A stretch of 41,428 bases of DNA, from the IMG/VR virus record IMGVR_UViG_3300033513_000024, positions 1 through 41,428 of that record; one strand, written 5' to 3'. Of this stretch, positions 579 to 40,764 are shown piece by piece (the stretch's first letter is position 1; every line of letters starts with the position of its first letter). Made by a program: the position numbers and the translations under genes. The stretch comes from a virus. Taxonomy: Duplodnaviria > Caudoviricetes. Below the pieces are notes generated by a model. That model worked only from the letters and a program-made list of their open reading frames with translations, was not told the origin of the DNA and did no database searches.

Positions 579-606
579 AGTGCGTATAATCGCAATTATC
601 GCCACT
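579..606 (+). repeat. dif-like 11-6-11 site
   Basis: AGTGCGTATAA TCGCAA TTATCGCCACT. Confidence 0.8.
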
Positions 607-628
607 GGAAGCCGTAACAGGAGATCGC

Positions 629-1609
629 ATGGTTCGTCAAATCACCCTCTCGCAGGCCGTCGAGGGCTTCACTCTCGAAAAACAGGCCAAGCGCCTTTCA
701 CCCCACACCCTCGCCGACTATTCCAACTCATTCCGCAAACTCGCCGCCTATCTCGCCGACGATCCGCCCCTGGCCAGCATCACCGCCGACCAGGTCAAAC
801 ACTTCCTGGTTGAGCTGGGCACCATCCCCCAGCCGTCCAACGGCGTCGCCGCGCGCCCTGCCCGCCCTCTCTCCAACAAAACCATTCTCAACATCCACAC
901 CGCCCTCTCCGCGCTCTGGACCTGGGCCGTCGATGAGGGCCTGGTCGAGCGCCACATCATCCACGCCATTCCCCGTCCCCGCCCCGAGCAGCGCGCCATT
1001 CACCCCTTCCCCGAAGCGGATGTCCGCGCCCTCTTGGCTGCCTGCGAGAGATCCGTCGAGTACACCCGCCAGGGCAAGCGCGCTTGTGCCAATCTGCGTC
1101 CCACCGTCGAGCGTGATCGGGCCATCATCCTGCTACTGGTAGATACCGGGATGCGCGCCTCCGAGCTGTCCGATCTGCTCCTCATCAACCTCGACCTGAA
1201 AAATCGCCAGGTCGCCGTCTATGGCAAGGGCAACAAAGAGCGCATCCTGAAGTTTGCCCCGGCCACCGGCAATGCCCTCTGGCGCTACAAGCTCCGCCAC
1301 CGCGACGGCGAGCTGCCTGCCGCCCGTCTCTTCGTCGCTGAAGGTGGCGGCCCGTTCAACCGCCTGGCGCTCCTCCAGCTCCTCAAGCGCCTTGGCAAGC
1401 GCGCCGGCGTCCGCGACTGTCACCCGCACCGCTTCCGCCATACCTTCGCCATTCAATTTCTGAGAAACGGCGGCAACATCTACGCCCTCCAGGCCGCACT
1501 TGGGCACACCAGCCTGGATATGGTTCGCAAGTATCTCCAGATCGTCCAGGCGGACCTGGACGCTGTCCACGAGTCGGCCTCGCCCGTTGCCAATTGGCGC
1601 CTGCAATAA
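629..1609 (+). CDS. int: tyrosine recombinase/integrase (XerC/D-like)
   Basis: RDRAIILLLVDTGMRASEL, GKGNKER, HRFRHTFA, LGH, then catalytic Tyr (MVRKY); N-terminal SAM-like region. Confidence 0.95.
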   Translation: MVRQITLSQAVEGFTLEKQAKRLSPHTLADYSNSFRKLAAYLADDPPLASITADQVKHFLVELGTIPQPSNGVAARPARPLSNKTILNIHTALSALWTWAVDEGLVERHIIHAIPRPRPEQRAIHPFPEADVRALLAACERSVEYTRQGKRACANLRPTVERDRAIILLLVDTGMRASELSDLLLINLDLKNRQVAVYGKGNKERILKFAPATGNALWRYKLRHRDGELPAARLFVAEGGGPFNRLALLQLLKRLGKRAGVRDCHPHRFRHTFAIQFLRNGGNIYALQAALGHTSLDMVRKYLQIVQADLDAVHESASPVANWRLQ

Positions 1610-1610
1610 C

Positions 1611-1639
1611 AAAAGCCCAGTCTCTGGTGACCGGGCTTC
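1611..1639. terminator. hairpin terminator between convergent int and tail genes
   Basis: AAAAGCCCAGTC-loop-GACCGGGCTT inverted repeat. Confidence 0.6.
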
Positions 1640-1641
1640 TC

Positions 1642-1669
1642 AGTCCCTATAATGCGCGTTATCGCGTCT
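1642..1669 (+). repeat. dif-like 11-6-11 site
   Basis: AGTCCCTATAA TGCGCG TTATCGCGTCT. Confidence 0.75.
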
Positions 1670-1675
1670 CTCAGA

Positions 1676-2164
1676 TTAGGCTATCTCATCCTGGTTCAGC
1701 AGGAACATACCGAACCATGTTGGAACTTCAGAAGCGTCAAGGTTTTGATTAACGCTGGTCTGTGCCGTCAACTCCACGTATGCCCCCGCCGCCAAATGGG
1801 TGATGACGCTGACGTTCATGCCGTCTGCTATGCTCGCATTGCCCAATCGCTTATTTGCGTCGAGACAAGTGCCGGCATTGTTGCGGATGAATACTCCGTG
1901 ACTATTGGCAGCCGCCGCCCAACCCACACAGCCCTGCACGAGATAGTAGCCGGCGCGCCCCGTAGGGACCGTGAGCCGGTTGGTGTTAGTTACGAGGCTG
2001 TGGTAGCCGTCCGTGTCGAAGTCCTCCGCATCTGCCAACGGCACTACCTGTTCTCCTCCAGCCGTGATAGCAGAGTCAGCCGTGCTTCTGGCCAACACAC
2101 CGTGAAAGCCTTCTACGTGGTTCCAGATGGCCGCCGTAATTACGTCCCCTGTCGCCCTGGTCAT
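1676..2164 (-). CDS. minor tail/tail-tip protein
   Basis: Last gene of the tail module; TGDVITAAIWN start typical of small tail proteins; beta-rich. Confidence 0.55.
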   Translation of the reverse strand: MTRATGDVITAAIWNHVEGFHGVLARSTADSAITAGGEQVVPLADAEDFDTDGYHSLVTNTNRLTVPTGRAGYYLVQGCVGWAAAANSHGVFIRNNAGTCLDANKRLGNASIADGMNVSVITHLAAGAYVELTAQTSVNQNLDASEVPTWFGMFLLNQDEIA

Positions 2165-2174
2165 TGATCTGCTC

Positions 2175-4184: not shown

Positions 4185-5974
4185 TGTCTCCCCTCCAGAG
4201 CAGCTCTCACGCCCTGCTCGATGAAGGGCCGCAATACAGTCTCCGCCTCGTACTGGCTGGCCAGGGAGATCGCCGGCGCGTAAGTGAGGCTAATAGTTAT
4301 TATACTGCCTGCCCCGCCGCCCATGGCCGGCAAGCTGGCCAGTACCGGCGTGGCCGCCGCCAGCGCCATTTGCGGCTGCACGGACTGGCCGATGCCCGCC
4401 GCCATACCGGCCATCATCTGCGCACCGACCTCCATGAAGACCTTCGACGGCGAGTGGATGCCCAGCGCCTCGCGGGCGCCTTGCAACGCCCTCTGTGCCG
4501 CCTCGACCGCCGCCCGCCGGATCGCGTCCGAGCTGGCAATGCCGCGCGCAATCGAATCCACCATATCTTTGCCCAGCCCGATCAAATCGCCCGAAAGTAT
4601 CTGCCCCATCTTCCTGAAGGATTCTTTGAAGCCCACCATCAATCGGTCTGACCATTCCTTCCCCACGATATATGTCAGGAACCCACCCAACAGACCCGCC
4701 GCCAATTCCACACCCAACATTCGGATATCGGTCATAATCCGGGCGCCCATCTGCTGAATACCCAGCAGCACGCCCAGCGCCCCGCCGCCCATCTCGGCCG
4801 ATCCCGGAGTAAAAATGCTCTTGATGCCATCGACGATCCCGATCCCGATGTTGCGCCCGATATTCTGTACGGCGGTCTTCGTGGCTGGGTCTTCCAGGGC
4901 CGTCGCCAAATCGCCTGCCAGGTTCATTTCAGTTTTGAAGCCTTCGGCGCCGACACTGCCTATGCCAGAAATCAGGGTTTTCGCGACGTCGGTTCCAACC
5001 GCCTTGATCTGCGCCTGCGTGTCAGGCGAAGAAGCCCAATCAGAGAGCGCCTGGATAATTCCTTGCAATCCCTGCGCATTGAACAGGTTGATGAATTCTT
5101 GTGCCTTAGGGATGCCCGTATTGACAAACCAATCCACCAGTTCGGTCAACTTGGGGATCGCCGTGTCGGTGATGAACTTAACCGCATTGTCGAGCGCCGC
5201 TTGGAATTCCGGCGTGTTCAGTCCCCCTATGAGCTTATCCGCCAGCTCCGTCAGGACCGGCAGCAACGCCGTCCCGATGGTGTCCTTGATCCCCCCGATC
5301 TTGTTCTGGAGGATGTCCAACTTGCCGGCGAAGGTCTCTCCGGCCGCCTGCGCGCTTCCTCCAAACTCCCGTTGTAGCTCTTGCAAAATCAGCTTTTGCG
5401 CCCCCGCCGTGTTCCCGGCCTCCACCATCGCCGCGATCATTTCTTTTTGGCTGTCAGTGAAGGTTACGCCCACGCGCGACAGGGCACTGATGCCTGCAAT
5501 CGGATCGTTGAGCGCCTTGCCCAATTGTATCGCGCTCGTGTTGAGGTCCTGCCCCAGCGCTGTGGACATATCCAACATCGTCTCAGTCGCCGCGGGGAAC
5601 ACGTCTTTCCCGATGTTGGTGAAGGTGAGAAGCATATTCTCACCTGATACAATCGCGTCATCCTCGAAGCGGGTGACGTCTTGCAGAGAAGCCGCCAGCT
5701 CGTTGGCCATTTCGGCGCTGACGCCCGCCGCCCCGCCCGTCGACTCGATGACCTGTGCCAGTTGCGCCTGGATGTCCTGCGCTTCCATCGCGCCGGCTGT
5801 GCAGTCGGCCAGCGCCGCCGTCAGGCCCGTCGCCGCTATGATGCCCCCTGCCAATCCAACCGCCAGCCCGCCCAGCGCAATCTTGCCCAGGCCGCCCAGC
5901 GCGTTCTTAACGCCGCCTAGCACGCCGGTGGCATTGTCCTTTGCGTTGACGATGATCTGGACTGTGTTAGCCAT
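4181..5974 (-). CDS. tail tape measure protein
   Basis: Ala/Gly-rich helical; QLGKALNDPIAGISALSRVGVTF and LGIHSPSKVF motifs; position. Confidence 0.9.
   Translation of the reverse strand: MANTVQIIVNAKDNATGVLGGVKNALGGLGKIALGGLAVGLAGGIIAATGLTAALADCTAGAMEAQDIQAQLAQVIESTGGAAGVSAEMANELAASLQDVTRFEDDAIVSGENMLLTFTNIGKDVFPAATETMLDMSTALGQDLNTSAIQLGKALNDPIAGISALSRVGVTFTDSQKEMIAAMVEAGNTAGAQKLILQELQREFGGSAQAAGETFAGKLDILQNKIGGIKDTIGTALLPVLTELADKLIGGLNTPEFQAALDNAVKFITDTAIPKLTELVDWFVNTGIPKAQEFINLFNAQGLQGIIQALSDWASSPDTQAQIKAVGTDVAKTLISGIGSVGAEGFKTEMNLAGDLATALEDPATKTAVQNIGRNIGIGIVDGIKSIFTPGSAEMGGGALGVLLGIQQMGARIMTDIRMLGVELAAGLLGGFLTYIVGKEWSDRLMVGFKESFRKMGQILSGDLIGLGKDMVDSIARGIASSDAIRRAAVEAAQRALQGAREALGIHSPSKVFMEVGAQMMAGMAAGIGQSVQPQMALAAATPVLASLPAMGGGAGSIITISLTYAPAISLASQYEAETVLRPFIEQGVRAALEGRQ
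4283..4310 (-). repeat. dif-like site inside the tape measure gene
   Basis: Minus strand: AGGCAGTATAA TAACTA TTAGCCTCACT. Confidence 0.65.
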
Positions 5975-5978
5975 CTTC

Positions 5979-6006
5979 AGTTCCCATAATTCAGATTATA
6001 GCGACT
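5979..6006 (-). repeat. dif-like site
   Basis: Minus strand: AGTCGCTATAA TCTGAA TTATGGGAACT. Confidence 0.75.
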
Positions 6007-8448: not shown

Positions 8449-8925
8449 TCAGCTTCCCCCCAACCTATCCGCTATCCGCTTCGCCACCTCGTTGAACTCG
8501 TTTTCAATCCAACTCACGTTCTCTTCGAGGCCCCGCCTGAACATCTCGAATGCCCTTGTTCCGTGCCGGGCGATCCCCCTGGCCACCACGAACGCCGTTG
8601 TCCCGTGTCGCCGCGCCCACACCTCCAGCGCCGCCAGTGGCGGCCAGTGTGGCTTCGTCCCAAACTCGGAGTAGGGCGCATAGGTTACGTTCGTGCCCAC
8701 AATGCCGCGTATGTCGCTTCCGCTCCCCTCGACGACCTGGGTTATCGATGACCTTTCCCTGCCCCGGTCAACCGGTGTGTACTTCTTGACGCTGGTCGCA
8801 ACCCGCTGCACGGTGCGGTTCATCCCTTTGTCGATCTCACCTCTGACCACGTCTACCGCGCCCGCGAACTTCCGCTCGACCGCTTCCAGCCCCTCAATTT
8901 TGACCGCGATAACCGGCTGTGCCAT
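8449..8925 (-). CDS. HK97 gp10-like neck protein
   Basis: TPVDRGRERSSI, VGTNVTYAPYSEFGT; start reassigned to MAQPVIAV, which overlaps the upstream TGA. Confidence 0.75.
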   Translation of the reverse strand: MAQPVIAVKIEGLEAVERKFAGAVDVVRGEIDKGMNRTVQRVATSVKKYTPVDRGRERSSITQVVEGSGSDIRGIVGTNVTYAPYSEFGTKPHWPPLAALEVWARRHGTTAFVVARGIARHGTRAFEMFRRGLEENVSWIENEFNEVAKRIADRLGGS

Positions 8926-9812
8926 CAGATACCCGCCATCGCCATGGGGAATGCGCTCTTGAGCAGCGTCTCCACGTCCGGGTCGAGCTTCTTCACATAG
9001 CTCATCTGCCCACTCTCCGCCGCGCTCATCCCTGCGTCCTGCTGCCCCTGCTGCGCCCGCTTGAAGAAACGCGACGCCTGGATTTTGCACGCCCGCGCTA
9101 TATCCTCTGGCGGTGTGGTAGAAATTCCGAACACCCCGGTCACCTTCACCCGCTTCCGACCGGCCGTGAACACGCTCTTCGTCGTGCCCGCCTTTTGACT
9201 GACCTCCAGGGCCCGGATCGATTCGCCTATCATCGAGGCATTGTATGGCCAGGTGTAATAATCCGTCTCCGCCGCCCACGTGGTCCATACCCCGTCCGTC
9301 TCCTCCACCTCGACCTTCGACACGCTCACCGCGTGGTCGATGCGCTGGTAAGCCATCCCGCTCCCCATGAAATAGCGCGTTTCGCTATCCGCTGCCAAAT
9401 AGGCCCCCGGCTCCACCCGCTTGAACCGGTCGATTAACCGGCTCGCCTCCACGCACATCTTCCAGATCACGTCCTCGAATTCCTGGCCTATCGCCTGGCT
9501 GCCCGATCCCGCCGCAAGCTCGTGTCTCACGTCCAGTGCTGTGCAGTAGGCGTCAACCGTGCCCCCCTGCTGCGCTGCGCTTTTGGTTGACTCCCCTGGC
9601 GTCGCGCCATAGTAGGCGACTTTGTACCAGGTCGCCGTGGTGCCGTCCACGTCGGCGTAAGCATAGCCCGTCTGCCCGGCCACCAGCGCCACAGTGCCGT
9701 CCAGGGTCGTGAACGCCCCCGTCGAGGTCGTATCGGTGTACACCCGGATGACCGTGTACCCAGCCGCGATAATCTGAGTTATATCGTCTACAGTGATAGA
9801 CAGTCTGATCAT
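8925..9812 (-). CDS. head-tail connector/adaptor with N-terminal extension
   Basis: AYCT...ASRLIDR...PEDIARAC...LDPDVETLL, typical of gp6/gp15-like adaptors. Confidence 0.7.
   Translation of the reverse strand: MIRLSITVDDITQIIAAGYTVIRVYTDTTSTGAFTTLDGTVALVAGQTGYAYADVDGTTATWYKVAYYGATPGESTKSAAQQGGTVDAYCTALDVRHELAAGSGSQAIGQEFEDVIWKMCVEASRLIDRFKRVEPGAYLAADSETRYFMGSGMAYQRIDHAVSVSKVEVEETDGVWTTWAAETDYYTWPYNASMIGESIRALEVSQKAGTTKSVFTAGRKRVKVTGVFGISTTPPEDIARACKIQASRFFKRAQQGQQDAGMSAAESGQMSYVKKLDPDVETLLKSAFPMAMAGI
9762..9789 (-). repeat. dif-like site inside the adaptor gene
   Basis: Minus strand: AGACGATATAA CTCAGA TTATCGCGGCT. Confidence 0.65.
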
Positions 9813-12238: not shown

Positions 12239-12266
12239 AGGCAGCATAATCACCATTAACCTCACT
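12239..12266 (+). repeat. dif-like site
   Basis: AGGCAGCATAA TCACCA TTAACCTCACT. Confidence 0.65.
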
Positions 12267-16221: not shown

Positions 16222-16249
16222 TGTGATGATAATAAGTCTTATACCGTCT
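16222..16249 (-). repeat. dif-like site
   Basis: Minus strand: AGACGGTATAA GACTTA TTATCATCACA. Confidence 0.7.
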
Positions 16250-17956: not shown

Positions 17957-17984
17957 AGGCGGTATAATCTACCTTATCACTACT
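17957..17984 (+). repeat. dif-like site
   Basis: AGGCGGTATAA TCTACC TTATCACTACT. Confidence 0.75.
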
Positions 17985-20100
17985 CGATAATGGCCACCGC
18001 CGTGCACCTGCAATTGATAATCTCTTCGGGCAAGTTCCCCTCGCCCGGCGATTGCATCATATCCGCCCCAACATTGAACATCGCATCCAGCGCGATCGGC
18101 TCTGCCTGGTAGCGCTGGTGTGCCTCGACGTGTGTATCTCGTGTCCGATCGTCGAGCGCCGCCAGCCACGCCTTCTTCTCCACAACCCCCGATTGGCGCA
18201 TTCCCTCGATGTTGCCCTTGTTGGCCGCCTTATTCATCTCAGTTCGGCTGATGCGCTCCGTCTCATAATCCGACTTGCGCGTGTCGAACACCGTGCTGAT
18301 CCGGCCATAGATTTCCTGCTGTATCCGGGGGATGCCCCATCCGCCGGCGTCCGCCTCTGCCAGCACCTCACGCAACACCACCGCGATCTGGTCCTGAGTC
18401 GTTTGGTTGATGTCCTCCGCGAACTTGATCGGCATCGCCTGGATGGCCGGCACCACGTGCGGATTGCGCAGGTCAAACGTCAAATCCACCCCCAGCGTGT
18501 CCAGTTGCCCCTGGCCGAAGTCCTGTATAGTCTCCTCAAAGAAGTGCAGATAATTGTCCGCCAGGAACTTCGCCTCCGCCGCCCAATTCAGGAGATCGCC
18601 GGGGCCGGTGGGGATGGGGCCATCCTTAGCCGCCTTCCCCCCGCGCAACTTCCGCAGCACCTCATTCTGCTGGCGCTGGAAGTCCTTCTTCAATTGCCGT
18701 TGCATAGCCCGCTCGTGTGGCACGAGTTGCGCTGCATAAGTCTTCCACAGTGCCTCGTGTTGTGGCGACCCATAGGCGATCACCGCTTTGGTCTCTCGCC
18801 CGTTCCGATGGGACAGAGCAGCAATCGGCTGGGTCTTCACTGGCGACGGCGCCCCCGTGGGCAGCAGGTTCACCGGCAAATACCCTGTATTCATCCCAGG
18901 CAGCCCCGCCGGCATTCCCAGCTTTAGCCGCTCATTGATCGCATCCGGTGCATACCCCAGGCTGAAGAGGCTCTTCGCCTGCTCCAGCTTCGGCGCGATG
19001 TCCTCCTGCAGAATCCCCACGCCCGACAGGTCAGTTGCAACTCGCTCTCCCGCATTCAGCAGCGGTCGTACCCGGCTGAAGAAGTGCGTCAGGCCAGTAT
19101 CCCGGTGGTTAATCAGCGCCAGCATCGTCAGCGTCCAGAACGCCTTCAATGCTGCCAGCAACTTCGTCTCCGTGTCGTAGGTATCTGGTCCCCATCCCAT
19201 CAGCGCATCCGGCACACCGATGATTGCCCCTACCTCATCCCGGCTGAATTTGCGTTGATCAAGCCACTCGATGTCCTTCGGCGTGAAGCTGAACGTCTTA
19301 ATGTCGGTGATGCCTTGCTCCAGAATAATCGGCCGGTGCCACCCCGCCTGCCCGCTGAATTTCATCATCAGCGCCGTCTCCAGCGCTTCCTTCTCCGAGG
19401 TGGTGATCCCCTGGGGGGCAATCACCGCATAATCAGGCCGCGCCCCGCGCTGCAAAAACGACTTGCTCCACGCCTGCGCAAATAAGTCGATGACAATCCC
19501 CTCTCTCACTGCCGCGATAGGAGGCAGCCCACGGAACTCGTTCAGAGGGTTATAGAATTTCGTGTGGATCATCCGCTCCGGGGGAATGGGGTTCTGGTCG
19601 TCGTCGTCGAAGATGTAATCGGCCACCCGCGGATAAAGTGACCGCTCCGGTGAGATGTCCGGCCGTAAGCCGATCTGGTCCGGCCGCCGCGGCCACAGCT
19701 CCACCGGCCGCCCCCGCTTATCGTCCACGACCTCCTGGAAGCTCTCCCCGGCCAGCAGGTGGTGGATAATCCACCGCTGCCACAGGTCCACCGGGTTCAT
19801 CGTGTCGTTGACGTTGCTCAGCAGGTCCGTGATAATGTGCGGCTTCGCCTTGCCGTCGGCGTCCACCACTCTCACCGGCAGAGGCGCGAAGTTTTCGGCC
19901 ACTTTAGCCACCGCCTTGTGCACCCACACATAGGCCTGGTATATTTTGGCGTAATCGGCAAAGGCCCCGATTTCATCGTCGAAGACCTTCGTCACCCCCG
20001 ATTGCTGCTGCACCAGGTGCACCCGCCCGGCCAGCTCGGGATGAGACGAGACGCCCTTTAATCTATCGCGTTCGGCTTGGATGCGAGATAAAAAGCCCAT
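17980..20100 (-). CDS. portal protein fused to MuF/SPP1 gp7-like head morphogenesis domain
   Basis: Portal motifs (FRGLPPI, IGVP) then RISRTE, KAWLAALDDRTRDTH, EIINCRC. Confidence 0.9.
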   Translation of the reverse strand: MGFLSRIQAERDRLKGVSSHPELAGRVHLVQQQSGVTKVFDDEIGAFADYAKIYQAYVWVHKAVAKVAENFAPLPVRVVDADGKAKPHIITDLLSNVNDTMNPVDLWQRWIIHHLLAGESFQEVVDDKRGRPVELWPRRPDQIGLRPDISPERSLYPRVADYIFDDDDQNPIPPERMIHTKFYNPLNEFRGLPPIAAVREGIVIDLFAQAWSKSFLQRGARPDYAVIAPQGITTSEKEALETALMMKFSGQAGWHRPIILEQGITDIKTFSFTPKDIEWLDQRKFSRDEVGAIIGVPDALMGWGPDTYDTETKLLAALKAFWTLTMLALINHRDTGLTHFFSRVRPLLNAGERVATDLSGVGILQEDIAPKLEQAKSLFSLGYAPDAINERLKLGMPAGLPGMNTGYLPVNLLPTGAPSPVKTQPIAALSHRNGRETKAVIAYGSPQHEALWKTYAAQLVPHERAMQRQLKKDFQRQQNEVLRKLRGGKAAKDGPIPTGPGDLLNWAAEAKFLADNYLHFFEETIQDFGQGQLDTLGVDLTFDLRNPHVVPAIQAMPIKFAEDINQTTQDQIAVVLREVLAEADAGGWGIPRIQQEIYGRISTVFDTRKSDYETERISRTEMNKAANKGNIEGMRQSGVVEKKAWLAALDDRTRDTHVEAHQRYQAEPIALDAMFNVGADMMQSPGEGNLPEEIINCRCTAVAIIE

Positions 20101-20298
20101 TTATCCCCTGCCCGCCTTGTACCCGGCCACCACAGCCGCGATTATCCACGTCACCGCCCTCACCACGAACCCCACCAGCCACCCCGCCACAAAAGGCACC
20201 ACAGACACGATAACGACGATTATATCGCCTGCCTTGATCTGGCTTGCCTGTACCTTGATTTGCTCGATCATCTTCGCCTCATCCTCATCCAGGCCCAT
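20101..20298 (-). CDS. small membrane protein
   Basis: Hydrophobic 65-aa ORF between terminase and portal. Confidence 0.5.
   Translation of the reverse strand: MGLDEDEAKMIEQIKVQASQIKAGDIIVVIVSVVPFVAGWLVGFVVRAVTWIIAAVVAGYKAGRG
20203..20230 (-). repeat. dif-like site inside a small ORF
   Basis: Minus strand: AGGCGATATAA TCGTCG TTATCGTGTCT. Confidence 0.7.
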
Positions 20299-21722
20299 TC
20301 CCGTATCGCGTCCGGCCCGTGGTCTTCCGCCTTGACCGGTTTTACCTCATCGCCGGTCGCTCCCTCCGGGTACTGGTAATCCTCCCCCATCTCACGGATG
20401 AAGTTCCTGCACCGTGGGTGGACCCTCATCTTGACATTGCCATCCGCCCCACGTACGAGCCGCCGAACGTTGTTGATGCCTTCGATGATCCCAGCCGACC
20501 CGCCGCGGGCCGTGATGTCAGCCTGCCGCAACGCTTCGGCCAGTTGCACCGCGCTGGGATCGCCTACCGCGATCTCGAAGCGCTCGAACCCATGACCCTT
20601 GGCCATCGCCTTCGCCTCACTGATGCACACGGCCGGCAAGTGGCGAGTGTGGTACAGCTCATCGAAGATATTGACCACGCCCTGGTCGTCCACCTGAATA
20701 AAGAGAAAAACACGCGGGCTATGAGAAAACCCATCGTCATACGCAATTTCCACTGGTCCACGGTCCGCGTCATAATCCGCCAGGGCTGAGATGTTGTCCG
20801 CTCCAAACTCATCGTAAACCAACCCTTCGGCCGTCTCAACGAATAGCCCCCCAAGCTCTTGCTCTCCCCACTTCCCCGTGTACGCCGTCAGCATCGAGGC
20901 GTAGAAGAGCGGGTCCAGGTTGGCCCGGTTGTCGTGGATGCTGGCGTGATGATACTCGTACAGCGGACCCTTGTACCCCAGCTCATCCAGTAACACCTGG
21001 ACCTCTGCTGGTACTTCCTGCTGCACGAACGTCCTGAACGTCCAGTGCCGTTTCCCCCGCGGCGTCATCGTCACCCACGCTGACGGGTCCGGTCCTATGC
21101 GCACTCCGCCGATGGCCACCTTCCAACTGCCGCCCGTCCGGTCCCGCTGGCCTTCGTCATACCACAGCCAGTTGACATTTGGGCCGCGTGCGCTGTCCAC
21201 ATCTCGCAGACCCTTGCAGTTGACCGTCGCACCGTTGTCGAAGTGGATCACGAACGGGGCTGTTGGCTCCCAGCCAAATTCGCCCATTCGCTGGTCTCTG
21301 GCAATCACATGCTCCCAGGCAATCCATCGCCGGAACTCCGGCCACGTCGAGAGTTTGAAGTTTTCAAAGTCAGGGTTAAGCACCAGGCCCGGCAACCCGC
21401 GCCTGATGCGTTTCAGCGCCTCTTGCGCCCCCGCCGTGCTCTTCCCCGATCCCCGACCACCCACCAACGCTTTGTAACGTACCGTGCTGTCGTGAAAATG
21501 CCCCTGGCCAGGATTGGGAATGTACAGGTGCCCATCGTCGCGGACAAACCAATCACCCGTTCTCCACGGGCTGTTCCGCACCTTCAGCCGGCGCTGTTTC
21601 TCCGCCAGCAGCACCGCCAGTTCCCGCTTTTGCTGGCGCTCTAACGGCTGCGCTAAGCCGTGCGATCCTCTCGTCCAATTCATCGTCATCCAACTCTGCA
21701 AGATCGTCCACTCCCAGAGCAC
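20268..21722 (-). CDS. terL: terminase large subunit (start uncertain)
   Basis: Walker A GGRGSGKS, WYDE Walker B, TMTP, C-terminal nuclease with DHGPDA. Confidence 0.9.
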   Translation of the reverse strand: MLWEWTILQSWMTMNWTRGSHGLAQPLERQQKRELAVLLAEKQRRLKVRNSPWRTGDWFVRDDGHLYIPNPGQGHFHDSTVRYKALVGGRGSGKSTAGAQEALKRIRRGLPGLVLNPDFENFKLSTWPEFRRWIAWEHVIARDQRMGEFGWEPTAPFVIHFDNGATVNCKGLRDVDSARGPNVNWLWYDEGQRDRTGGSWKVAIGGVRIGPDPSAWVTMTPRGKRHWTFRTFVQQEVPAEVQVLLDELGYKGPLYEYHHASIHDNRANLDPLFYASMLTAYTGKWGEQELGGLFVETAEGLVYDEFGADNISALADYDADRGPVEIAYDDGFSHSPRVFLFIQVDDQGVVNIFDELYHTRHLPAVCISEAKAMAKGHGFERFEIAVGDPSAVQLAEALRQADITARGGSAGIIEGINNVRRLVRGADGNVKMRVHPRCRNFIREMGEDYQYPEGATGDEVKPVKAEDHGPDAIREWAWMRMRRR

Positions 21723-24899: not shown

Positions 24900-24927
24900 A
24901 GAGGGTATAATGGTGCTTATCCGCACT
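24900..24927 (+). repeat. dif-like site
   Basis: AGAGGGTATAA TGGTGC TTATCCGCACT. Confidence 0.8.
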
Positions 24928-25572: not shown

Positions 25573-25600
25573 AGTCGCTATAACTCCAGTTATCCTCACT
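25573..25600 (+). repeat. dif-like site
   Basis: AGTCGCTATAA CTCCAG TTATCCTCACT. Confidence 0.8.
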
Positions 25601-27323: not shown

Positions 27324-27348
27324 CTTTCCATTTCTGGTTGTTTCCCAT

Positions 27349-27376
27349 AGTGCATATAAGAGTAATTATCGCGCCT
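27349..27376 (+). repeat. dif-like site
   Basis: AGTGCATATAA GAGTAA TTATCGCGCCT. Confidence 0.8.
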
Positions 27377-27377
27377 G

Positions 27378-28625
27378 CTATACTTCAGGGTCCCAAGCCA
27401 GCCCTTCGATTGCCGGCTGCCGGAACCCCACACCGTCCAGATCGTCGAAGATGCACGGCTGCATCTCCATCAACTCGCTTGCCGTAAACAGGTCATACAT
27501 CCCCATCTGCCCCTTGCGCAGCGCCAGTTGCAATTTCCTGATCTCCTCAGCCATGCCCTGGCTCATAAAACTATGCCAGGCTTTGGGATGGGTCCGTCGC
27601 ATCACGGCCATGTGGTTATCGGGGAAAAGCAGATCGGTGGAGCACCCCATACAACCGTTGCGCTTGATCTTCCGGCAGGACCCATCGGCAGCCGTATAGG
27701 AAATATCGTACAGGCTGGCGTACGGGACATTGTAGCGGTGGATGTAGGACCAGATGTCCTCATCCGTCCAGATCGCCAGGGGCTGGCAATGCCAGATGCG
27801 CTCTCCCTGTAGATAATCCTTCTTCGCCCCCTGGAAGAGATAGCCACGGGTCAAGAAGTTCTTGGCCCTGGACCGGCTCTCAGAAGCCATCAAGCCTTTG
27901 AATACCAGGTCAACTCCAAGTTGCGCTTGCATCGCCTCAGATGGCCCTTTCTTGATCACGTCACAACACGCCTGGCTGATCTTCACCTGCCGCAACACGG
28001 CATAGTAGCGCAATAGCGATTCGTCCTGGCTCTCACTCTCCGAAAAGCGCAGGAATGTATCAATGTTAATGCGCCGGGCCGTGAGCTTCGACCAGGCCTT
28101 GCCCAGCAATGGCCAGCCGTACTGGTCAACGCACCACCAATACGTTTGACGTGTGCTGGCCGGCCACACCAGCCGCCGGCTCTCCAGCTCAGCCGCCAGA
28201 TCGGGCGGGCAAGCTCGCTCCAATGCCTCTGTAGATTTCAGCTTGCCATCTGGTTTCAGCACGTCGCCGATGCGCCCATCAGCAATCAATCGCTCCCAGA
28301 TCATCCTCTGTCCGGCGTATTTGTAGCCAATCCTGTCCGTATGTAGCAGCTTTGTCTCGTGGAAATTCAACCGCCAATCTTCGGCGAGCTGGCGCGAAAA
28401 CTTGATGCACTCTGGGAATTCCACCCCGGTGTTTCCATAGCCCACCAGAATGTCCGGTCGCACCGACTTGATCATGTGCAGCAGGGCCGTGCTATCCTTC
28501 CCCCCCGAAAAGGCCACCATCGGGCGCTTGCATACTTCAAGCGCCTTGATGATAGCCACACAGGCCATCTCGATCTTGTAATCCAGGGGCTTCTGTTGTT
28601 CAGCCGTCAATTCATTCCAACGCAT
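27378..28625 (-). CDS. PAPS reductase-family (PP-loop) protein
   Basis: AFSGGKDS, TGVEFPE, CCDVIKK, PLAIWT, RNGCMGC. Confidence 0.85.
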   Translation of the reverse strand: MRWNELTAEQQKPLDYKIEMACVAIIKALEVCKRPMVAFSGGKDSTALLHMIKSVRPDILVGYGNTGVEFPECIKFSRQLAEDWRLNFHETKLLHTDRIGYKYAGQRMIWERLIADGRIGDVLKPDGKLKSTEALERACPPDLAAELESRRLVWPASTRQTYWWCVDQYGWPLLGKAWSKLTARRINIDTFLRFSESESQDESLLRYYAVLRQVKISQACCDVIKKGPSEAMQAQLGVDLVFKGLMASESRSRAKNFLTRGYLFQGAKKDYLQGERIWHCQPLAIWTDEDIWSYIHRYNVPYASLYDISYTAADGSCRKIKRNGCMGCSTDLLFPDNHMAVMRRTHPKAWHSFMSQGMAEEIRKLQLALRKGQMGMYDLFTASELMEMQPCIFDDLDGVGFRQPAIEGLAWDPEV

Positions 28626-29940: not shown

Positions 29941-29968
29941 AGTTGGTATAATCGTCATTATCAGCACT
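29941..29968 (+). repeat. dif-like site
   Basis: AGTTGGTATAA TCGTCA TTATCAGCACT. Confidence 0.8.
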
Positions 29969-36349: not shown

Positions 36350-36430
36350 CGATCACTGCCCTTTTAATAAGTAGGTCCGATAATACCGGTTGTAGCCCTG
36401 CGTCGCTCCCCTGCCCTCTGAGCGTGTCGT

Positions 36431-36514
36431 ATGGCCCCGTCGACGGGGACTTAATATGTCCCCGTCGTAAAAAAGGATGTCCCCGTCGAATGTCCCCGTC
36501 GAATGTCCCCGTAG
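36431..36514. repeat. 12-bp direct repeats ATGTCCCCGTCG
   Basis: Copies at 36431 (variant), 36456, 36477, 36490, 36503 (variant); inverted copy at 36441-36450. Confidence 0.8.
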
Positions 36515-36547
36515 GGGAACAAACACCATCTTTCGGCGGGACCGGGA

Positions 36548-36898
36548 CTATTCCCCTGGCAGCCTCAAATTCCACTGAAAGCGCATGGACCGGCTGGGCT
36601 CCTTGCTGTCGAATAGGAGACTACTTAACTCGTTGCCTTGGCCTCCCTCGTATTCTCCCATCGCATAGTTCAGAAAGAATGCCGCGATCTGACTGGCACT
36701 GGTCCCTTCCGCCTTCGCCGCAGCCTCAATGCGCTCCTTCAACTCTTCCGGCAGATCGTACTTCACGCGCACTCGTCCGCGATCCTTGCGCTGTTTGCTC
36801 GTCAGCGCCGCCGTGTTCGTCGCCGCCGTTTTCTGCCACTCAGTCACCGCTGGGTCTAGACCCCGCAAGCCCCCCACCCGTTTGTCACCCATCGTCAA
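36548..36898 (-). CDS. ribbon-helix-helix DNA-binding protein
   Basis: RVKYDLPEELKERIEAAAKAEGTSASQIAAFFL. Confidence 0.65.
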   Translation of the reverse strand: MTMGDKRVGGLRGLDPAVTEWQKTAATNTAALTSKQRKDRGRVRVKYDLPEELKERIEAAAKAEGTSASQIAAFFLNYAMGEYEGGQGNELSSLLFDSKEPSRSMRFQWNLRLPGE

Positions 36899-36906
36899 AA
36901 CTCCTC

Positions 36907-36934
36907 AGTGCGTATAAGAAACGTTATCGTGTCT
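36907..36934 (+). repeat. dif-like site
   Basis: AGTGCGTATAA GAAACG TTATCGTGTCT. Confidence 0.8.
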
Positions 36935-37136
36935 GCCCTACCACAACCCAAATATCCCTGGCGACCTCTCGCTGCCGGGTGAGTGTCAGTCGTATCACAT
37001 TGCACCCGGCGAGGACGAAAGCCATCGTGATCACGTCCTGCCAGAGCGCCACTCCCAACAGACCGATCAACAGCGCCAGAACCAGTTCCCCCAGTGCCAG
37101 GCTGAAAGCCGCGCGATAAAGAAAGTGGATGCTCAT
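36924..37136 (-). CDS. small membrane protein
   Basis: Two hydrophobic segments; coupled ORF. Confidence 0.5.
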   Translation of the reverse strand: MSIHFLYRAAFSLALGELVLALLIGLLGVALWQDVITMAFVLAGCNVIRLTLTRQREVARDIWVVVGQTR

Positions 37137-39682
37137 TTCCCCTTCCCATTATTGCCGTCGACATGCACCGTCTCAACGCTCCCCATATAATCAAACAGCG
37201 TCGGGGCCATCGCCTTCATCTCGGCCTGCCGGCAATAGGCCGCGCCGGCGCGCCAGAAATCCTCACTCAGCTCGATCCCGTACCCCCGTCTTCCCATCTC
37301 AACCGCAACGTAGGGAACGGTAAACAGACCAGCGAACGGGTCCAGGATAATGTCGGGTTCGGCGACCAATTCGGGATCGCTGGTGAACCGCTCGACCAGC
37401 CGCCGGACAATATCGAAAGGCAACGGGCAAATGTGCTTCTCAAGGCCCCGCTGGCTCTGGACGCTGTTCAAGCAAAACATTGGGTTGATGTTGTCCCACA
37501 CCCGGTCGCTGTGGCTCTCTGGCGGTTCGTAGAAGAACGTCGCCGGCAGGTTCCCGGCGCGTTCCTTCTCTTCGAGCCGGGCCACGTGGGCATCATAATC
37601 GTAGAGTTCATCTGGCAACAAGGGACGGTCGCCAGATGAGCGCCAGAATGAGTGAGCATCGATCTGCCATCTCGCACGGGTGTAGCGCTCCTTGCTATGC
37701 ACCACCTGCTCGTCTGCATAGGCCGTATCTGTTGCCGTCGGTGCCTTGCGGAAGAGCAGCACCTTTTCCGGCAGCCCCACGCCCATCTTCGACCCGTCTT
37801 TGCACATCTCAGTCCAACCCAGCCGATAGGTTGAATTGTTTTCGCGGACCACATCGGTCACTATGAAGATTTCGCCTTCGTACAAAAAGCCGTGCTTCAT
37901 AAAGGCGAAGATGGTCTTGGCTGAGAAGGGATTGATCTCCATAAACCCGGAGGCCGTCTGATGGCTGTAGCGCACGATGTCCTTGACGTGGATGGCTGCT
38001 ACCCGCCCCGGCTTGAGCACCCGCAACAGATGCGGGATGAGGAAATCCATCTGCTCGAAGAATCGCTCATCGTCCCGGTTGTGCCCAAAGTCGTTGTAGC
38101 TGGCCACGTATTCGTAGTGGGTGCTGAAGGGGATGCTGGAGATGATCGCCCCGAAATGGTTATCAGGCAGAGTCTGCAGCTCCTCCACGCAATCATTCTT
38201 GACCGCCGTGAAGCGCTCCCCGTCCGCCTGCTGTCGCTCTATGCCGATGGTCCGGTGCAGGTCCTGGCTCAAGGCTGCGTGGGTCAGGCCATACTGTTTG
38301 ATGATCGCTTGCATCTTAACCACCAAGGCGTCGTGTTGCTGCCATTTGCCCTTGAGAGTATCCACCACCGCCTGTTCCGACTCGGCGTAAATGATGTGTA
38401 TATCCACCGGCTGCTCTTGCTGAAACCGGTATATCCGGTGGATGGCCTGGATGAAATCTTGGAAGAGGTAGGACACGCCCAAAAACACGGCGCTGTGGCA
38501 ATAGAGCTGGAAATTGCACCCGGAGCCTGACAGCTCAGGCTTGCTCGCCAGGATGGCCACGTCACCGTGGGCGAAGCCAATGGTGCGCTCCTCACGCACG
38601 TCCAGGTCCTGAGAGCCGTACACGCTGATCGCATCCGGCACCGCCTTTTCAATGGCCCGCCGTTCGTCTTCCAGGTGATGCCACAATAGCCAATGGCGGT
38701 CCGGGGCCTCGCCGACGATCTCGACCATCTTTCGGATCCGGTCCGCCAGCGTTGCCCTCTTTTCGGCGGATGCCTCTCGCACCCCGCTGGCCGCGTCCAG
38801 GAACAACCGGTGCTGTCCCCGATTGTCGGTTTGGTCCCACGCCCGGCGATGATCCGTCTCGATGCGGTGCCAATGGACGCGCAGCTCGGGCAGGTTGTAA
38901 CCCTCGTCCGAATAGCCCAAATCACTGGGCTTATACAGGAACAGCGCCCACGAAGCCACCCACAGCCAGAATGTGCGTTCGTGCTGGGGATGGATCGTCA
39001 GGTGACCGGCCTTCGTCGTATCGCGTTGAAACCACCGGGTCAAGGCCTCGCCGTGCTCCATAATCCCCAGCCAGCGCGCGTAATAGATGATTTCTCGATA
39101 CTCATTGGGCGCCGGCGTCGCCGTCGCCACAAACCGATAAGGGACGGGGGCGAAGACTTCCACGAACACATCCGACGTTTTGCTATCCAGTGACCGGAGC
39201 ACTGACCCCTCGTCCAGTGAGACACCCCCCAGCAGATTGATGGTCGCCGGCGTGATGTTGCCCTCTCTCACCCGTTCGTAATTGGTGATGAGGTATGGAG
39301 TCGTCGCCGCCCGGATTTCCTCATCGGTGCGCACGTACTGCCACACCTGGCCCAGCGCCGGTCCGTCCTCCGCGCTGAACTGGTATTTCACCCCCAACGG
39401 GCAAACCACCAAGAATGGCTTGCCAGTGCGTTCGTAGATTAGCCTGGCCAGCTCGCACTGCACGCGCGTCTTGCCAAGCCCGAAGCTCATCGCAATCAAG
39501 GCCCGTCCCAGGCGCGCCGCCCAAACAATCGTATCTCTCTGATGTGGGAAGAGGCTCGGATGTAGAGTTCCCGGATCAACAGCAAAACCGGACCGCTCCA
39601 CTATATCGATCTTGCTCTCTAAGAAGTTCTGGTATTCCGTAGGTGTGTCCATTTGCTCACAATTCATATATCGCTCTACCAT
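37133..39682 (-). CDS. SNF2-like helicase fused to N4/N6 DNA methyltransferase
   Basis: FGLGKT, LDEG, ATATP, QAIHRIYRFQQ; then SSIPF, KHICP, ILDPFAG, GIEL. Confidence 0.88.
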   Translation of the reverse strand: MVERYMNCEQMDTPTEYQNFLESKIDIVERSGFAVDPGTLHPSLFPHQRDTIVWAARLGRALIAMSFGLGKTRVQCELARLIYERTGKPFLVVCPLGVKYQFSAEDGPALGQVWQYVRTDEEIRAATTPYLITNYERVREGNITPATINLLGGVSLDEGSVLRSLDSKTSDVFVEVFAPVPYRFVATATPAPNEYREIIYYARWLGIMEHGEALTRWFQRDTTKAGHLTIHPQHERTFWLWVASWALFLYKPSDLGYSDEGYNLPELRVHWHRIETDHRRAWDQTDNRGQHRLFLDAASGVREASAEKRATLADRIRKMVEIVGEAPDRHWLLWHHLEDERRAIEKAVPDAISVYGSQDLDVREERTIGFAHGDVAILASKPELSGSGCNFQLYCHSAVFLGVSYLFQDFIQAIHRIYRFQQEQPVDIHIIYAESEQAVVDTLKGKWQQHDALVVKMQAIIKQYGLTHAALSQDLHRTIGIERQQADGERFTAVKNDCVEELQTLPDNHFGAIISSIPFSTHYEYVASYNDFGHNRDDERFFEQMDFLIPHLLRVLKPGRVAAIHVKDIVRYSHQTASGFMEINPFSAKTIFAFMKHGFLYEGEIFIVTDVVRENNSTYRLGWTEMCKDGSKMGVGLPEKVLLFRKAPTATDTAYADEQVVHSKERYTRARWQIDAHSFWRSSGDRPLLPDELYDYDAHVARLEEKERAGNLPATFFYEPPESHSDRVWDNINPMFCLNSVQSQRGLEKHICPLPFDIVRRLVERFTSDPELVAEPDIILDPFAGLFTVPYVAVEMGRRGYGIELSEDFWRAGAAYCRQAEMKAMAPTLFDYMGSVETVHVDGNNGKGK

Positions 39683-40356
39683 CCAAAATCTTCGGCTTTA
39701 TACTCGTGGTCGTGGTTTAGCCGGTCGTGAACGTAGGTTCCTCTCACAGGCAGATTCTCAATCACGCGCCACGCCTCCCACAGATGGGACAGGAATACCT
39801 TAATCATCTTGCGCATGGCAGCGTTGTGAATGTGTGCCTTTGTCCAGTCAGGTCGCCCCGCTTGATAGAATGTCTTGGCGTCGTCATACACCTCACGATA
39901 GGGCGAATTGCACTTGAGGAAGGACGAGGCGACCAAATACAGGGTTGTCTTCAGGCGAGCATTGTAGTGCAGCTTTTCGCCTTTCGTCGGTCGTTCTCGC
40001 TCACCATCCACGACGCCATAGCCACAGTAACGCCACAGCGCCGAAACGGTATCGGCTCGTTCAATGTCAATCATCGCAATGAGTTTTGCTGAGAGTAGCG
40101 GGCCGATCCCTTTCAACCCCGACAGGCTTTCATAAATTGGCTCAGTCTTGACGGCGCGGGCTATATCCTTATTCAATTCCATCTCAAGGTCGGTGAAACG
40201 AATCAACCACTTGTCAACGACGTTGCGTTGATCGCTAACTGACGGGTCATCAGCGCTCTGCTCGATAGCTGCCAGGCGGTTTCCAAACTGGATACGCGCC
40301 TTTTGTATCTGGCGGTCGCGTAGGTCTACTAAAGCTCTCAGAAGATTGTCAGGCAT
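39676..40356 (-). CDS. tasA: TasA-like Nop/IS110-related RNA-binding protein without nuclease domain
   Basis: Coiled coil (RQIQKARIQFGNRL), then LKGIGPLLSAKLIA, SALWRYCG, YNARLKT, HIHNAAMRKMIKVFLSHLW; no N-terminal DEDD RuvC; directly downstream of the 36-bp array. Confidence 0.8.
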   Translation of the reverse strand: MPDNLLRALVDLRDRQIQKARIQFGNRLAAIEQSADDPSVSDQRNVVDKWLIRFTDLEMELNKDIARAVKTEPIYESLSGLKGIGPLLSAKLIAMIDIERADTVSALWRYCGYGVVDGERERPTKGEKLHYNARLKTTLYLVASSFLKCNSPYREVYDDAKTFYQAGRPDWTKAHIHNAAMRKMIKVFLSHLWEAWRVIENLPVRGTYVHDRLNHDHEYKAEDFGW

Positions 40357-40371
40357 TTTGTTTTTTCCTTT

Positions 40372-40727
40372 TCGCTCTATGATATAGGGTTACTTTCACA
40401 GTTGGGCTCGCACGGTTCTCTTTGTATCACTGGCTCGCTCTTATGATGCGGGTATCTTTCGTCACTTGGCTCGCTTACGTATGCTGGGTCTCTTCTACCC
40501 CCTGGCTCGCTTCCTCCTTTTGGTTCTCTCACTGTCACTGGCTCGCTTGGCGGTCTTGGGTCTCTAGACGTGGATGGCTCGCTTTACTCCTTTGGTTCTC
40601 TCAACGCCACTGGCTCGCTCTCGCTCTTAGGTCATCTCTATACGTACGGCTCGCTTTACCTTACTGGTCCTCTTCAACATCCTGGCTCACTCTGGGTGTG
40701 TGGTTCTCTCAATTGTCCTGGCTCGCT
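40372..40727 (-). ncRNA. TIGR-type tandem interspaced guide RNA array (8 complete units plus 2 degenerate)
   Basis: TGGCTCGCT or a one-mismatch variant at 40431, 40467, 40503, 40539, 40575, 40611, 40647, 40683, 40719 (exact 36-bp period). Minus-strand unit: AGCGAGCCA-N9-AGAGAACCA-N9. Confidence 0.88.
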
Positions 40728-40736
40728 TAGGCTCTC

Positions 40737-40764
40737 AGTTGGAATAATCGCTCTTATCAGCCCT
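40737..40764 (+). repeat. dif-like site at the leader of the TIGR array
   Basis: AGTTGGAATAA TCGCTC TTATCAGCCCT. Confidence 0.75.

What the first reader, a model, noticed from the sequence alone, without database searches (positions are those of the whole stretch)
579..40764. Twenty dif/Xer-like 11-6-11 palindromes tile the genome, each with a unique spacer
Seen: the consensus AGTGCGTATAA-N6-TTATC.....T occurs at 579, 1642, 4283, 5979, 8419, 9762, 12239, 13522, 16222, 17957, 20203, 22435, 24900, 25573, 27349, 28639, 29941, 32561, 36907 and 40737, with a degenerate candidate at 36373. Both orientations occur. Most copies overlap or abut the stop codon of a minus-strand gene (5996, 12262, 17980, 22458, 25596, 28656, 29967, 32584, 36924). 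Three lie inside coding sequence, which keeps spacing mostly at 1-3 kb. All 20 central hexamers differ. Known: E. coli dif is GGTGCGCATAA-TGTATA-TTATGTTAAAT; the left arm here matches 9/11 and the geometry is the same. Tyrosine recombinases generally need matching spacers to complete exchange. Inference, three options: (a) a pdif/integron-like cassette architecture where unique spacers prevent self-deletion but allow module swaps between related phages at cognate sites; (b) genome-wide binding sites for a dimeric protein (stoperator-like silencing, parS-like partition or compaction); (c) decoys for host Xer/FtsK. I know of no phage described with this arrangement.
Basis: partly seen in the sequence, partly recalled or inferred. 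Interest (0 to 1): 0.88.

Follow-up and report, generated by a model that had tools for sequence, protein, structure and literature searches.

The report
Barcoded recombination grid tiles phage genomes
This bacterial virus and two dozen relatives carry a mirror-image DNA site every 2-4 kb, each copy with its own central barcode, and the sites likely let a virus-encoded recombinase join the two ends of an incoming genome into a circle wherever packaging happened to cut it.

Summary
The 20 sites are real and are the only TAA-N6-TTA in the window. The window is a truncated temperate phage of Chloroflexota. Its integrase (629-1609) has its own tRNA-Val attP at 431-482, so it is probably not the enzyme for these sites. 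Relatives show the same tiling with phage-specific arms and 6- or 7-bp spacers (25 of 52 contigs fetched; unbiased 16 of 77 loci). They encode a second, catalytically intact tyrosine recombinase (YR2) in the region this contig lacks. Arms co-vary with YR2, not with the integrase, and untiled phages keep one such site at YR2's stop codon. Spacers are never identical or palindromic within a genome. Spacing is more even than chance and scales with genome length (5-9%). No phage with an HK97-type (cos) terminase is tiled (0 of 7, against 15 of 18 others). Best reading (0.55): P1 Cre/loxP-style circularisation generalised, so that any terminal redundancy of a headful-packaged genome holds one self-matching site pair. 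Module swapping gets mixed support; a repressor role is the other rival. Host XerCD decoys are unlikely. No recombination product was observed.

The parts
579..606 (.). site 1 (spacer TCGCAA), 22 bp before the integrase start; relatives have a full site or two tandem half-sites here
1642..1669 (.). site 2 (TGCGCG), between the convergent stops of the integrase and the last tail-side gene
4283..4310 (.). site 3 (TAGTTA), inside the tape measure gene, in frame
5979..6006 (.). site 4 (TTCAGA), holds a stop codon
8419..8446 (.). site 5 (TGTAAA), abuts a stop codon
9762..9789 (.). site 6 (TCTGAG), inside 8925-9812 (weak head-tail adaptor hit), in frame
12239..12266 (.). site 7 (TCACCA), holds a stop codon
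13522..13549 (.). site 8 (TATCCG), intergenic
16222..16249 (.). site 9 (TAAGTC), between protease and major capsid genes
17957..17984 (.). site 10 (TCTACC), holds the portal stop codon
20203..20230 (.). site 11 (CGACGA), inside 20101-20298; same spacer at the same place in relative L005
22435..22462 (.). site 12 (GCCCGA), holds a stop codon; same spacer in L005, where DNA homology restarts at the site
24900..24927 (.). site 13 (TGGTGC)
25573..25600 (.). site 14 (CTCCAG), holds the C5-methyltransferase stop codon
27349..27376 (.). site 15 (GAGTAA), abuts a stop codon
28639..28666 (.). site 16 (TGCAGG), holds the stop of the HTH_17 gene
29941..29968 (.). site 17 (TCGTCA), overlaps a stop codon
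32561..32588 (.). site 18 (TGTGGA), holds a stop codon
36907..36934 (.). site 19 (GAAACG), holds a stop codon
40737..40764 (.). site 20 (TCGCTC)
431..482 (+). attP-like 3' half of tRNA-Val(CAC): 8-bp inverted repeat (431-438, 446-453) around the 7-base anticodon loop, then T arm and acceptor strand
   Evidence: deep-coverage contigs match from 435 and diverge before it
629..1609 (+). YR1: arm-less tyrosine integrase of a Chloroflexota phage family, catalytic residues present; inferred tRNA integrase, likely not the main enzyme of the tiled sites
20268..21722 (-). large terminase, Terminase_3/Terminase_6N type; nearest solved relatives 5oe8/5oea and 4idh/4ife; predicted headful type
17980..20100 (-). 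portal protein fused to a Mu F / head morphogenesis domain
41065..41428 (-). ParA-like gene cut by the contig end; in prophage G041 the stretch between this gene and the att site holds YR2

Best explanation
The 20 sites are likely lox-type substrates of a phage-encoded tyrosine recombinase (YR2, predicted to lie just off this truncated contig), and their main job is likely to circularise the incoming genome. A headful terminase would pack about 105-110% of a circularly permuted genome, so each virion repeats a different few kilobases at its two ends. Sites spaced at 5-9% of genome length make it likely that the repeated stretch holds one site at both ends, in direct repeat. YR2 would recombine that pair, as Cre does at loxP in phage P1, without RecA or a phage annealing protein. 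Unique, non-palindromic spacers would stop any site from recombining with the other 19, so the genome is not deleted or inverted. Shown: the sites, their spacing, the spacer statistics, their co-variation with YR2, intact YR2 catalytic residues, and no tiling in cos-type phages. Inferred: YR2 binding and cleavage, headful packaging, the size of the redundancy, the presence of YR2 in this phage, and circularisation itself. Allelic exchange between co-infecting relatives would follow as a by-product.
For: Enzyme: arm profiles correlate with YR2 distance (Mantel r 0.47, P 0.001) but not YR1 distance (r 0.15, P 0.11; partial r 0.01) over 20 phages. 9 of 14 untiled YR2 contigs of 25 kb or more have one such site within -70 to +140 bp of the YR2 stop codon. 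One of them (G059) scores 28 bits on the window's own matrix. YR2 keeps R-K-H-R-H-Y in 38 of 39 copies; the broken copy is in an untiled cos-type phage. None of 12 near-whole contigs lacking YR2 is tiled. Catalysis: among 353 sites in 23 genomes there are 0 identical spacer pairs (2.7 expected, P 0.06), 28 pairs within one mismatch (41.7 expected, P 0.0075) and 0 palindromic hexamers of 241 (5.9 expected, P 0.0075). Spacing: gaps are more even than random subsets of gene boundaries in 24 of 24 genomes. In 10 near-complete genomes gap length rises with genome length (rho 0.73, P 0.016) while site number does not. Density is the same all round the map. An 8% redundancy would hold a whole site in 87-100% of random cuts. 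Packaging: among 25 YR2 contigs with a classed terminase, 0 of 7 PF03354 phages are tiled against 15 of 18 others (P 2.5e-4), and the 7 fall at four places in the YR2 tree beside tiled phages. No Erf, Rad52/Sak or over-cutoff Sak4 hit in 47 records; RecT only in 4 untiled, YR2-less ones. In prophage G041 the sites lie between attL and attR and not in 60 kb of host flank.
Against: YR2 is not in the window; its presence is inferred from the missing segment (far end 2.4-6.1 kb upstream of YR1 in 27 of 32 relatives, the window has 628 bp). One tiled contig rated complete (G028) also shows no YR2, though it too appears cut at that place. Packaging mode is inferred from terminases only 23-43% identical to known ones. 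Four tiled phages hit the lambda gpA family PF05876; the one searched is nearest to SPO1-like terminases at 25%, a group with fixed long repeats where tiling would not be needed. Three YR2 phages with non-cos terminases are untiled (G021, G040, G046), and G021's terminase has the same nearest relatives as tiled G002's. Eight of the 12 untiled YR2-less contigs show none of the four annealing-protein families, so their absence says little. At an SPP1-like 4% redundancy only 49-71% of cuts would hold a site. Spacers are more conserved between close relatives (86%) than fourfold-degenerate positions (66-81%), which circularisation alone does not require. Tandem half-sites before the YR1 start point to a binding role too. 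The phages are related, so all P values overstate independence.
Confidence: 0.55

Rival explanations
1. Programmed module exchange: YR2 crosses over allelic sites between co-infecting or resident related phages, the spacer acting as an address, so segments swap in register.
For: Orthologous spacers 86% identical, 16 of 27 exact, against 53% for flanks and 66-81% for fourfold sites. Gene-order breaks at 167 of 206 site boundaries against 289 of 435 others (P 1e-4). In the three closest pairs, DNA breakpoints at 16 of 33 sites against 14 of 59 other boundaries (P 0.02). One G002/G003 homology block is bounded by two sites.
Against: Over all 10 pairs the DNA enrichment vanishes (P 0.38), and sites sit in wider intergenic gaps (median 117 against 13 bp), which break more anyway. 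Most breaks are not at sites. Spacer identity falls to random below 65% protein identity. It does not predict even spacing scaled to genome size, in-gene sites or the lack of tiling in cos phages.
Confidence: 0.2
2. YR2 is chiefly a genome-wide DNA-binding regulator, like the recombinase-fold repressor MrpR of SPbeta or mycobacteriophage stoperators; spacers diverge only to prevent accidental recombination.
For: Most sites lie at gene junctions. Tandem half-sites 20-21 bp apart, or a full site, lie just before the YR1 start in most tiled relatives and match each phage's arms. MrpR is a precedent (PMC10516654, passages).
Against: MrpR has lost catalytic residues and binds a 15-bp motif; YR2 keeps all six in 38 of 39. 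Sites follow even spacing rather than operon starts. Cos-type phages with YR2 have at most one strong site, which repression does not explain.
Confidence: 0.14
3. The sites serve multimer resolution, decatenation or rescue of cut genomes between sister copies during replication, more sites making this faster.
For: The one-site-beside-YR2 state resembles xerS/difSL and xerH/difH modules (PMC5357621, passages). Unique spacers restrict crossing to sister copies. The window encodes ParA-like and FtsK-like proteins.
Against: One site suffices to resolve a dimer (established for dif and loxP). It does not explain gap scaling or the terminase association.
Confidence: 0.07
4. The sites are bound by host XerC/D or FtsK (decoys or alternative attP sites), or by the window's own integrase YR1.
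For: Same 11-6-11 geometry as dif. One site lies 40 bp before a YR1 relative in a host chromosome that has no strong YR2 hit.
Against: Arms are near-symmetric, differ between phages and track YR2, not YR1. 7-bp spacers occur. YR1 has a tRNA-derived attP in tiled and untiled phages alike, and prophage G041 is integrated at tRNA-Pro, not at a site. The host chromosome has one match, beside a tRNA-linked integrase.
Confidence: 0.04

Closest known systems
Cre/loxP of phage P1
   Same: Phage-encoded single tyrosine recombinase acting on inverted-repeat sites. P1 DNA is cyclised either by RecA on terminally redundant ends or by Cre-lox (PMC3973344, passage).
   Different: loxP is one 34-bp site with 13-bp arms (PMC7192630, passage); here 12-20 sites of 28-29 bp with distinct spacers tile the genome. 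No Cre chain was among the 12 PDB hits of the YR2 profile. These phages also integrate through a separate integrase.
Single-recombinase Xer systems (XerA/dif, XerS/difSL, XerH/difH) and XerCD/dif
   Same: 11-6-11 geometry; recombinase gene next to its site; XerA is the best PDB match of YR2 (E 2e-26).
   Different: Phage-borne, found in 2 of 301 sampled Anaerolineae-class genomes (six candidates scored per genome); far below NCBIfam XerC/XerD/XerA/XerS cut-offs; many orthogonal sites, some with 7-bp spacers.
pdif modules and integron cassette arrays
   Same: Recombination sites at gene boundaries, often holding a stop codon.
   Different: Sites here also cut core head and tail genes, each has a unique spacer, and segments hold several genes. 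No attC-type array or site-to-site junction was seen. Phage integrons (PMC9892861, abstract only) use attC/IntI. pdif features are recalled.
MrpR/SPBRE of SPbeta; mycobacteriophage stoperators
   Same: Many copies of one protein-binding site at gene junctions; MrpR has the tyrosine-recombinase fold.
   Different: MrpR is catalytically dead with a 15-bp motif; stoperators are asymmetric (PMC9283540, listing and abstract start). YR2 is intact and its spacers avoid identity and palindromy.
Barcoded gene-junction sites in earlier notes of this scan (SPbeta-like phages, an archaeal virus)
   Same: Two-armed site with a unique 6-base centre kept in order among relatives.
   Different: Those notes place the sites among small accessory genes; here they cover the whole genome evenly and are tied to a named recombinase family. 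Their claims were not checked here.

Membership tests
XerCD/dif | two 11-bp arms around a 6-bp centre | tested here: met
   definition; six or more relatives use 7 bp
XerCD/dif | two different arms, one a conserved XerD arm | tested here: not met
   window arms are near-mirror images; arm consensus differs per phage
XerCD/dif | enzyme is a host XerC/XerD pair above family cut-off | tested here: not met
   first YR2 scores about 103 bits against cut-offs of 330-335; arms track YR2; binding itself untested
XerCD/dif | single site near the replication terminus, FtsK-activated | tested here: not met
   20 copies; FtsK dependence not testable here
Single-recombinase module (XerS/XerH/XerA-like) | recombinase gene adjacent to its site | tested here: met
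   9 of 14 untiled YR2 contigs; not checkable in the window, which lacks YR2
Single-recombinase module (XerS/XerH/XerA-like) | intact R-K-H-R-H/W-Y catalytic set | tested here: met
   38 of 39 YR2 copies
Single-recombinase module (XerS/XerH/XerA-like) | protein above XerS or XerA family cut-off; chromosomal | tested here: not met
Cre/loxP | 13-8-13 site and Cre-family protein | tested here: not met
   11-6/7-11 sites; no Cre among PDB hits
Cre/loxP | circularises terminally redundant virion DNA | not testable with these tools
   indirect support only:
Cre/loxP | host phage packages by headful | tested here: inconclusive
   terminase Pfam class and nearest relatives point to headful, at low identity
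Integron / pdif cassette array | gene-content breakpoints fall at the sites | tested here: inconclusive
   protein-level enrichment; DNA-level not significant overall
Integron / pdif cassette array | excised circles or empty junctions between different sites | tested here: inconclusive
   none among contigs of 5 runs, patchy cover
Integron / pdif cassette array | IntI integrase with attC sites | tested here: not met
   first YR2 scores 58 bits against 265 for TIGR02249; sites are duplex inverted repeats
MrpR/SPBRE-type repressor | recombinase fold with lost catalytic residues | tested here: not met
MrpR/SPBRE-type repressor | represses transcription at its sites | not testable with these tools
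   no RNA holder listed

The most novel reading that the evidence does not exclude
A widespread group of Chloroflexota phages has turned one resolvase site into an address-coded grid: 12-20 mutually orthogonal sites per genome, co-evolving with one recombinase. The grid closes any circularly permuted genome without homologous recombination and doubles as a programmed crossover map for in-register exchange between related phages, a site-specific form of phage sex.
Probability: 0.3. Interest if true: 0.93.

Novelty: new variant of a known kind. Interest (0 to 1): 0.84.

Why it matters
Headful-packaging phages are described as circularising by homologous recombination (PMC5000459, passage), with P1's single loxP as the known site-specific alternative. 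A genome-wide grid of orthogonal sites would be a further solution to this end-joining problem. It makes sharp predictions: gap length should match terminal redundancy, and tiling should track packaging mode, so site spacing could report packaging strategy from sequence alone. The single-site and tiled states alternate on the YR2 tree, which shows the grid being gained or lost. The family also offers dozens of natural recombinase-arm pairs and naturally selected sets of non-cross-reacting spacers for genome engineering. Ten literature searches listed no description of this arrangement; the library lacks most subscription papers.

Tried and rejected
Exact-pattern scans of viral contigs with the window's arms found only single sites (29 loci) or nothing, because arms are phage-specific. 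Single-protein searches with the integrase and the helicase-methylase gave only distant, untiled loci. Of 31 terminase loci only L005 carried the sites. The metagenome scan gave mostly short contigs, and no relative covering the window's missing segment was found. Laying contigs of five runs showed no convincing site-to-site joint; one joint ends beside site 20 with a 21-base side and one near site 12 with a 28-base side, too weak to use. No RNA holder was listed. My first idea, that YR1 uses the sites as alternative attP sites, was dropped after the tRNA attP, prophage G041 and the Mantel test. A gradient of site density from the terminase gene was tested and not found (rho 0.09, P 0.11). The YR1 tree did not finish, so YR1 rests on pairwise distances. 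My gene caller is home-made and start codons are approximate. Other dispersed palindromes (G008, G011, G017, G020-G022) were inspected and are separate repeat families. No structure was predicted and no supplementary files were read.
Full report
Observation. All 20 listed coordinates carry an 11-6-11 imperfect inverted repeat. They are the only TAA-N6-TTA words in the window, while other spacer lengths give 0-4 hits. Every site scores at least 24 bits, the next place 9.2, and 100 Markov simulations reach at most 18.8. The candidate at 36373 scores 8.3 and is dropped. All spacers differ on both strands. Eleven sites contain or abut a stop codon and three lie in frame inside genes.

What the window is. 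It is a tailed temperate phage with terminase, portal, prohead protease, capsid, tape measure, primase, methyltransferases, FtsK-like and ParA-like genes. Relatives of its integrase are mostly in Chloroflexota, chiefly Anaerolineae. The contig is a fragment: both ends cut genes and it is rated 78% complete. The integrase at 629-1609 (YR1) is preceded by the 3' half of a tRNA-Val gene starting at the anticodon stem (431-482). A tRNA T-loop motif lies upstream of YR1 in 30 of the 32 contigs examined, tiled or not; the two misses have little or no upstream DNA. In genome G041 the prophage runs from a whole tRNA-Pro to its 3' copy on a second contig. YR1 is therefore the tRNA integrase and needs no other site.

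The feature is a family trait. Without selection, 16 of 77 viral loci of 10 kb or more around YR1 relatives show dispersed TAA-N6-TTA or TAA-N7-TTA at P < 0.001, against 0 of 19 terminase-relative loci. I then fetched whole contigs, choosing many because they looked enriched, so 25 tiled of 52 contigs of 25 kb or more (at least 8 sites) is not a frequency. Each tiled phage has its own outer-arm consensus and a 6- or 7-bp spacer; G050 mixes both. In G041 the sites fill the prophage and do not occur with that consensus in about 60 kb of host flank. A complete Anaerolineales chromosome has one match to the window pattern, beside a YR1 relative at a tRNA.

The cognate enzyme. Tiled relatives carry a second tyrosine recombinase, YR2, on the opposite strand, its far end 2.4-6.1 kb upstream of YR1 in 27 of 32 contigs that have both. 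The window has 628 bp there. In G041 YR2 lies between the ParA-like gene and the att site, exactly the stretch the window lacks. Of the tiled contigs without a whole YR2, G014 has a piece at its end, G041 has it on the second contig, and G000, G016 and G028 appear to stop short of that region. None of 12 other YR2-less contigs is tiled. Arm profiles correlate with YR2 distance (r 0.47, P 0.001) and not with YR1 distance (r 0.15, P 0.11; partial r 0.01) in 20 phages. Among 14 untiled YR2 contigs, 9 have one site within -70 to +140 bp of the YR2 stop, with 8-11 of 11 arm positions symmetric. This is the gene-beside-site layout described for xerS and xerH (PMC5357621, passages). YR2 keeps all six catalytic residues in 38 of 39 copies. 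Its best PDB match is archaeal XerA, it is far below Xer family cut-offs, and it was found in 2 of 301 sampled genomes of the host class.

Signs of catalysis. In 353 sites from 23 genomes (G003 and G054 left out as close relatives of others) no two spacers within a genome are identical (2.7 expected, P 0.06). Pairs within one mismatch number 28 against 41.7 expected (P 0.0075), and none of 241 hexamers is palindromic (5.9 expected, P 0.0075). An earlier set of 316 sites gave the same pattern. That tyrosine recombinases need matching spacers and take their direction from spacer asymmetry is established knowledge, recalled here. A pure operator would have no reason to avoid these spacers unless its protein can also cut.

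Signs of a spacing rule. Gaps are more even than random subsets of gene boundaries in 24 of 24 genomes tested, and the mean gap is 5-9% of contig length. In 10 near-complete genomes the gap grows with genome length (rho 0.73, P 0.016) while site number does not. Density is flat around the map. Headful phages pack 102-110% of a genome with variable ends (PMC5000459, passage). A redundancy of 8% would contain a whole site in 87-100% of random cuts, 6% in 72-92% and 4% in 49-71%. SPP1 packs about 45.9 kb of a 44.0-kb genome and needs the redundancy to recircularise (PMC6316719, passages).

Link to packaging. Among 25 YR2 contigs with a classed terminase, none of 7 with PF03354 is tiled, against 15 of 18 others. 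That PF03354 marks HK97-type cohesive ends is recalled; HK97 as 3' cos is. The 7 sit at four places in the YR2 tree next to tiled phages, and one has a dead YR2 and no site beside it. The window's terminase hits Terminase_3 and Terminase_6N. Its nearest solved relatives are 5oe8 and 4idh; that 4idh is the Sf6 enzyme is recalled. Tiled G001 and G013 are nearest to psiM2 and to Thermus phages such as P23-45 and P74-26, recalled as headful. Against this, four tiled phages hit the lambda gpA family, with SPO1-like nearest relatives at 25% for the one searched, and three non-cos YR2 phages are untiled. No Erf, Rad52/Sak or over-cutoff Sak4 hit was found in 47 records, and RecT only in four untiled YR2-less ones; this is weak, since most untiled phages have none either.

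Mechanism. P1 cyclises its terminally redundant DNA by RecA or by Cre-lox (PMC3973344, passage). With one site only some virions can carry it twice (inference). Tiling with unique spacers removes that limit: whichever stretch is repeated, it likely holds one site whose only match is its own copy at the other end, always in direct repeat. This one idea accounts for even spacing, in-gene sites, scaling with genome size, unique and asymmetric spacers, free orientation and absence from cos phages. It remains an inference; no binding, cleavage or circle was observed.

Rivals. Module exchange is partly supported. Orthologous spacers are 86% identical in close pairs (16 of 27 exact), above fourfold sites (66-81%) and flanks (53%), and gene-order breaks favour site boundaries. 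The window's relative L005 keeps both shared spacers. But DNA breakpoints are not enriched over all 10 pairs (P 0.38), sites sit in wider gaps, and spacer identity is random beyond close relatives. I read exchange as a likely by-product. A regulatory role is suggested by tandem half-sites before the YR1 start and by MrpR (PMC10516654, passages), but MrpR is catalytically dead. Host XerCD decoys fit poorly.

Novelty. Ten searches listed no description of this arrangement. Papers were seen as search listings, abstracts or passages only, and no supplements were read. Earlier notes of this scan describe barcoded junction sites among accessory genes of other viruses; none matched this window or YR2 by sequence. 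It works like Cre/loxP but is not a member of that family. I rate it a new variant of a known kind, interest 0.84.

Noticed in passing
window 39676-40356 (-): 226-aa protein with only an IS110-type Transposase_20 hit and no obvious IS context; 60-63% identical copies sit in phages G035 and G039, so it looks like a phage gene.
   Followed up: partly
upstream of YR1 in G001, G002, G004, G007, G009-G015, G029, G041, G042: An A-tract followed by two half-sites about 20-21 bp apart, with a full site 150-280 bp on the other side of attP in most; YR2 may regulate the integrase or shape the attP complex.
   Followed up: partly
G050 (whole contig): Seven 6-bp and seven 7-bp spacer sites with one arm consensus in one genome; its YR2 is close to those of 7-bp phages G048/G049.
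   Followed up: no
G020:883-1845: The only YR2 without catalytic residues, in an untiled cos-type phage that has six copies of a different 14-bp palindrome.
   Followed up: partly
G008, G011, G017, G021, G022: Other dispersed repeat families at gene boundaries (a tandem heptamer-like repeat in G008; hairpin repeats in the others), unrelated to the recombinase sites.
   Followed up: no
window 25596-28625 and 37133-39682: C5 methyltransferase beside a PAPS-reductase-domain gene, and a SNF2 helicase fused to an N6/N4 methyltransferase: possible DNA modification set.
   Followed up: no
window 17980-20100: Portal protein fused to a Mu F / head morphogenesis domain.
   Followed up: no
window 40540-40740: No convincing gene called between 40356 and 40807; overlapping ORFs there have repetitive residue patterns, suggesting a short-period repeat next to site 20.
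   Followed up: no
G009:C8 (L149): A 49-kb tiled phage contig of 65% GC sits in a genome bin labelled Cloacimonadota, possibly mis-binned.
   Followed up: no
L151, L194, L209, L302, L315, L355, L357, L362: A TAA-N7-TTA match 23 bp before the YR1 stop arises from the conserved C-terminal peptide and is probably a coding artefact.
   Followed up: partly
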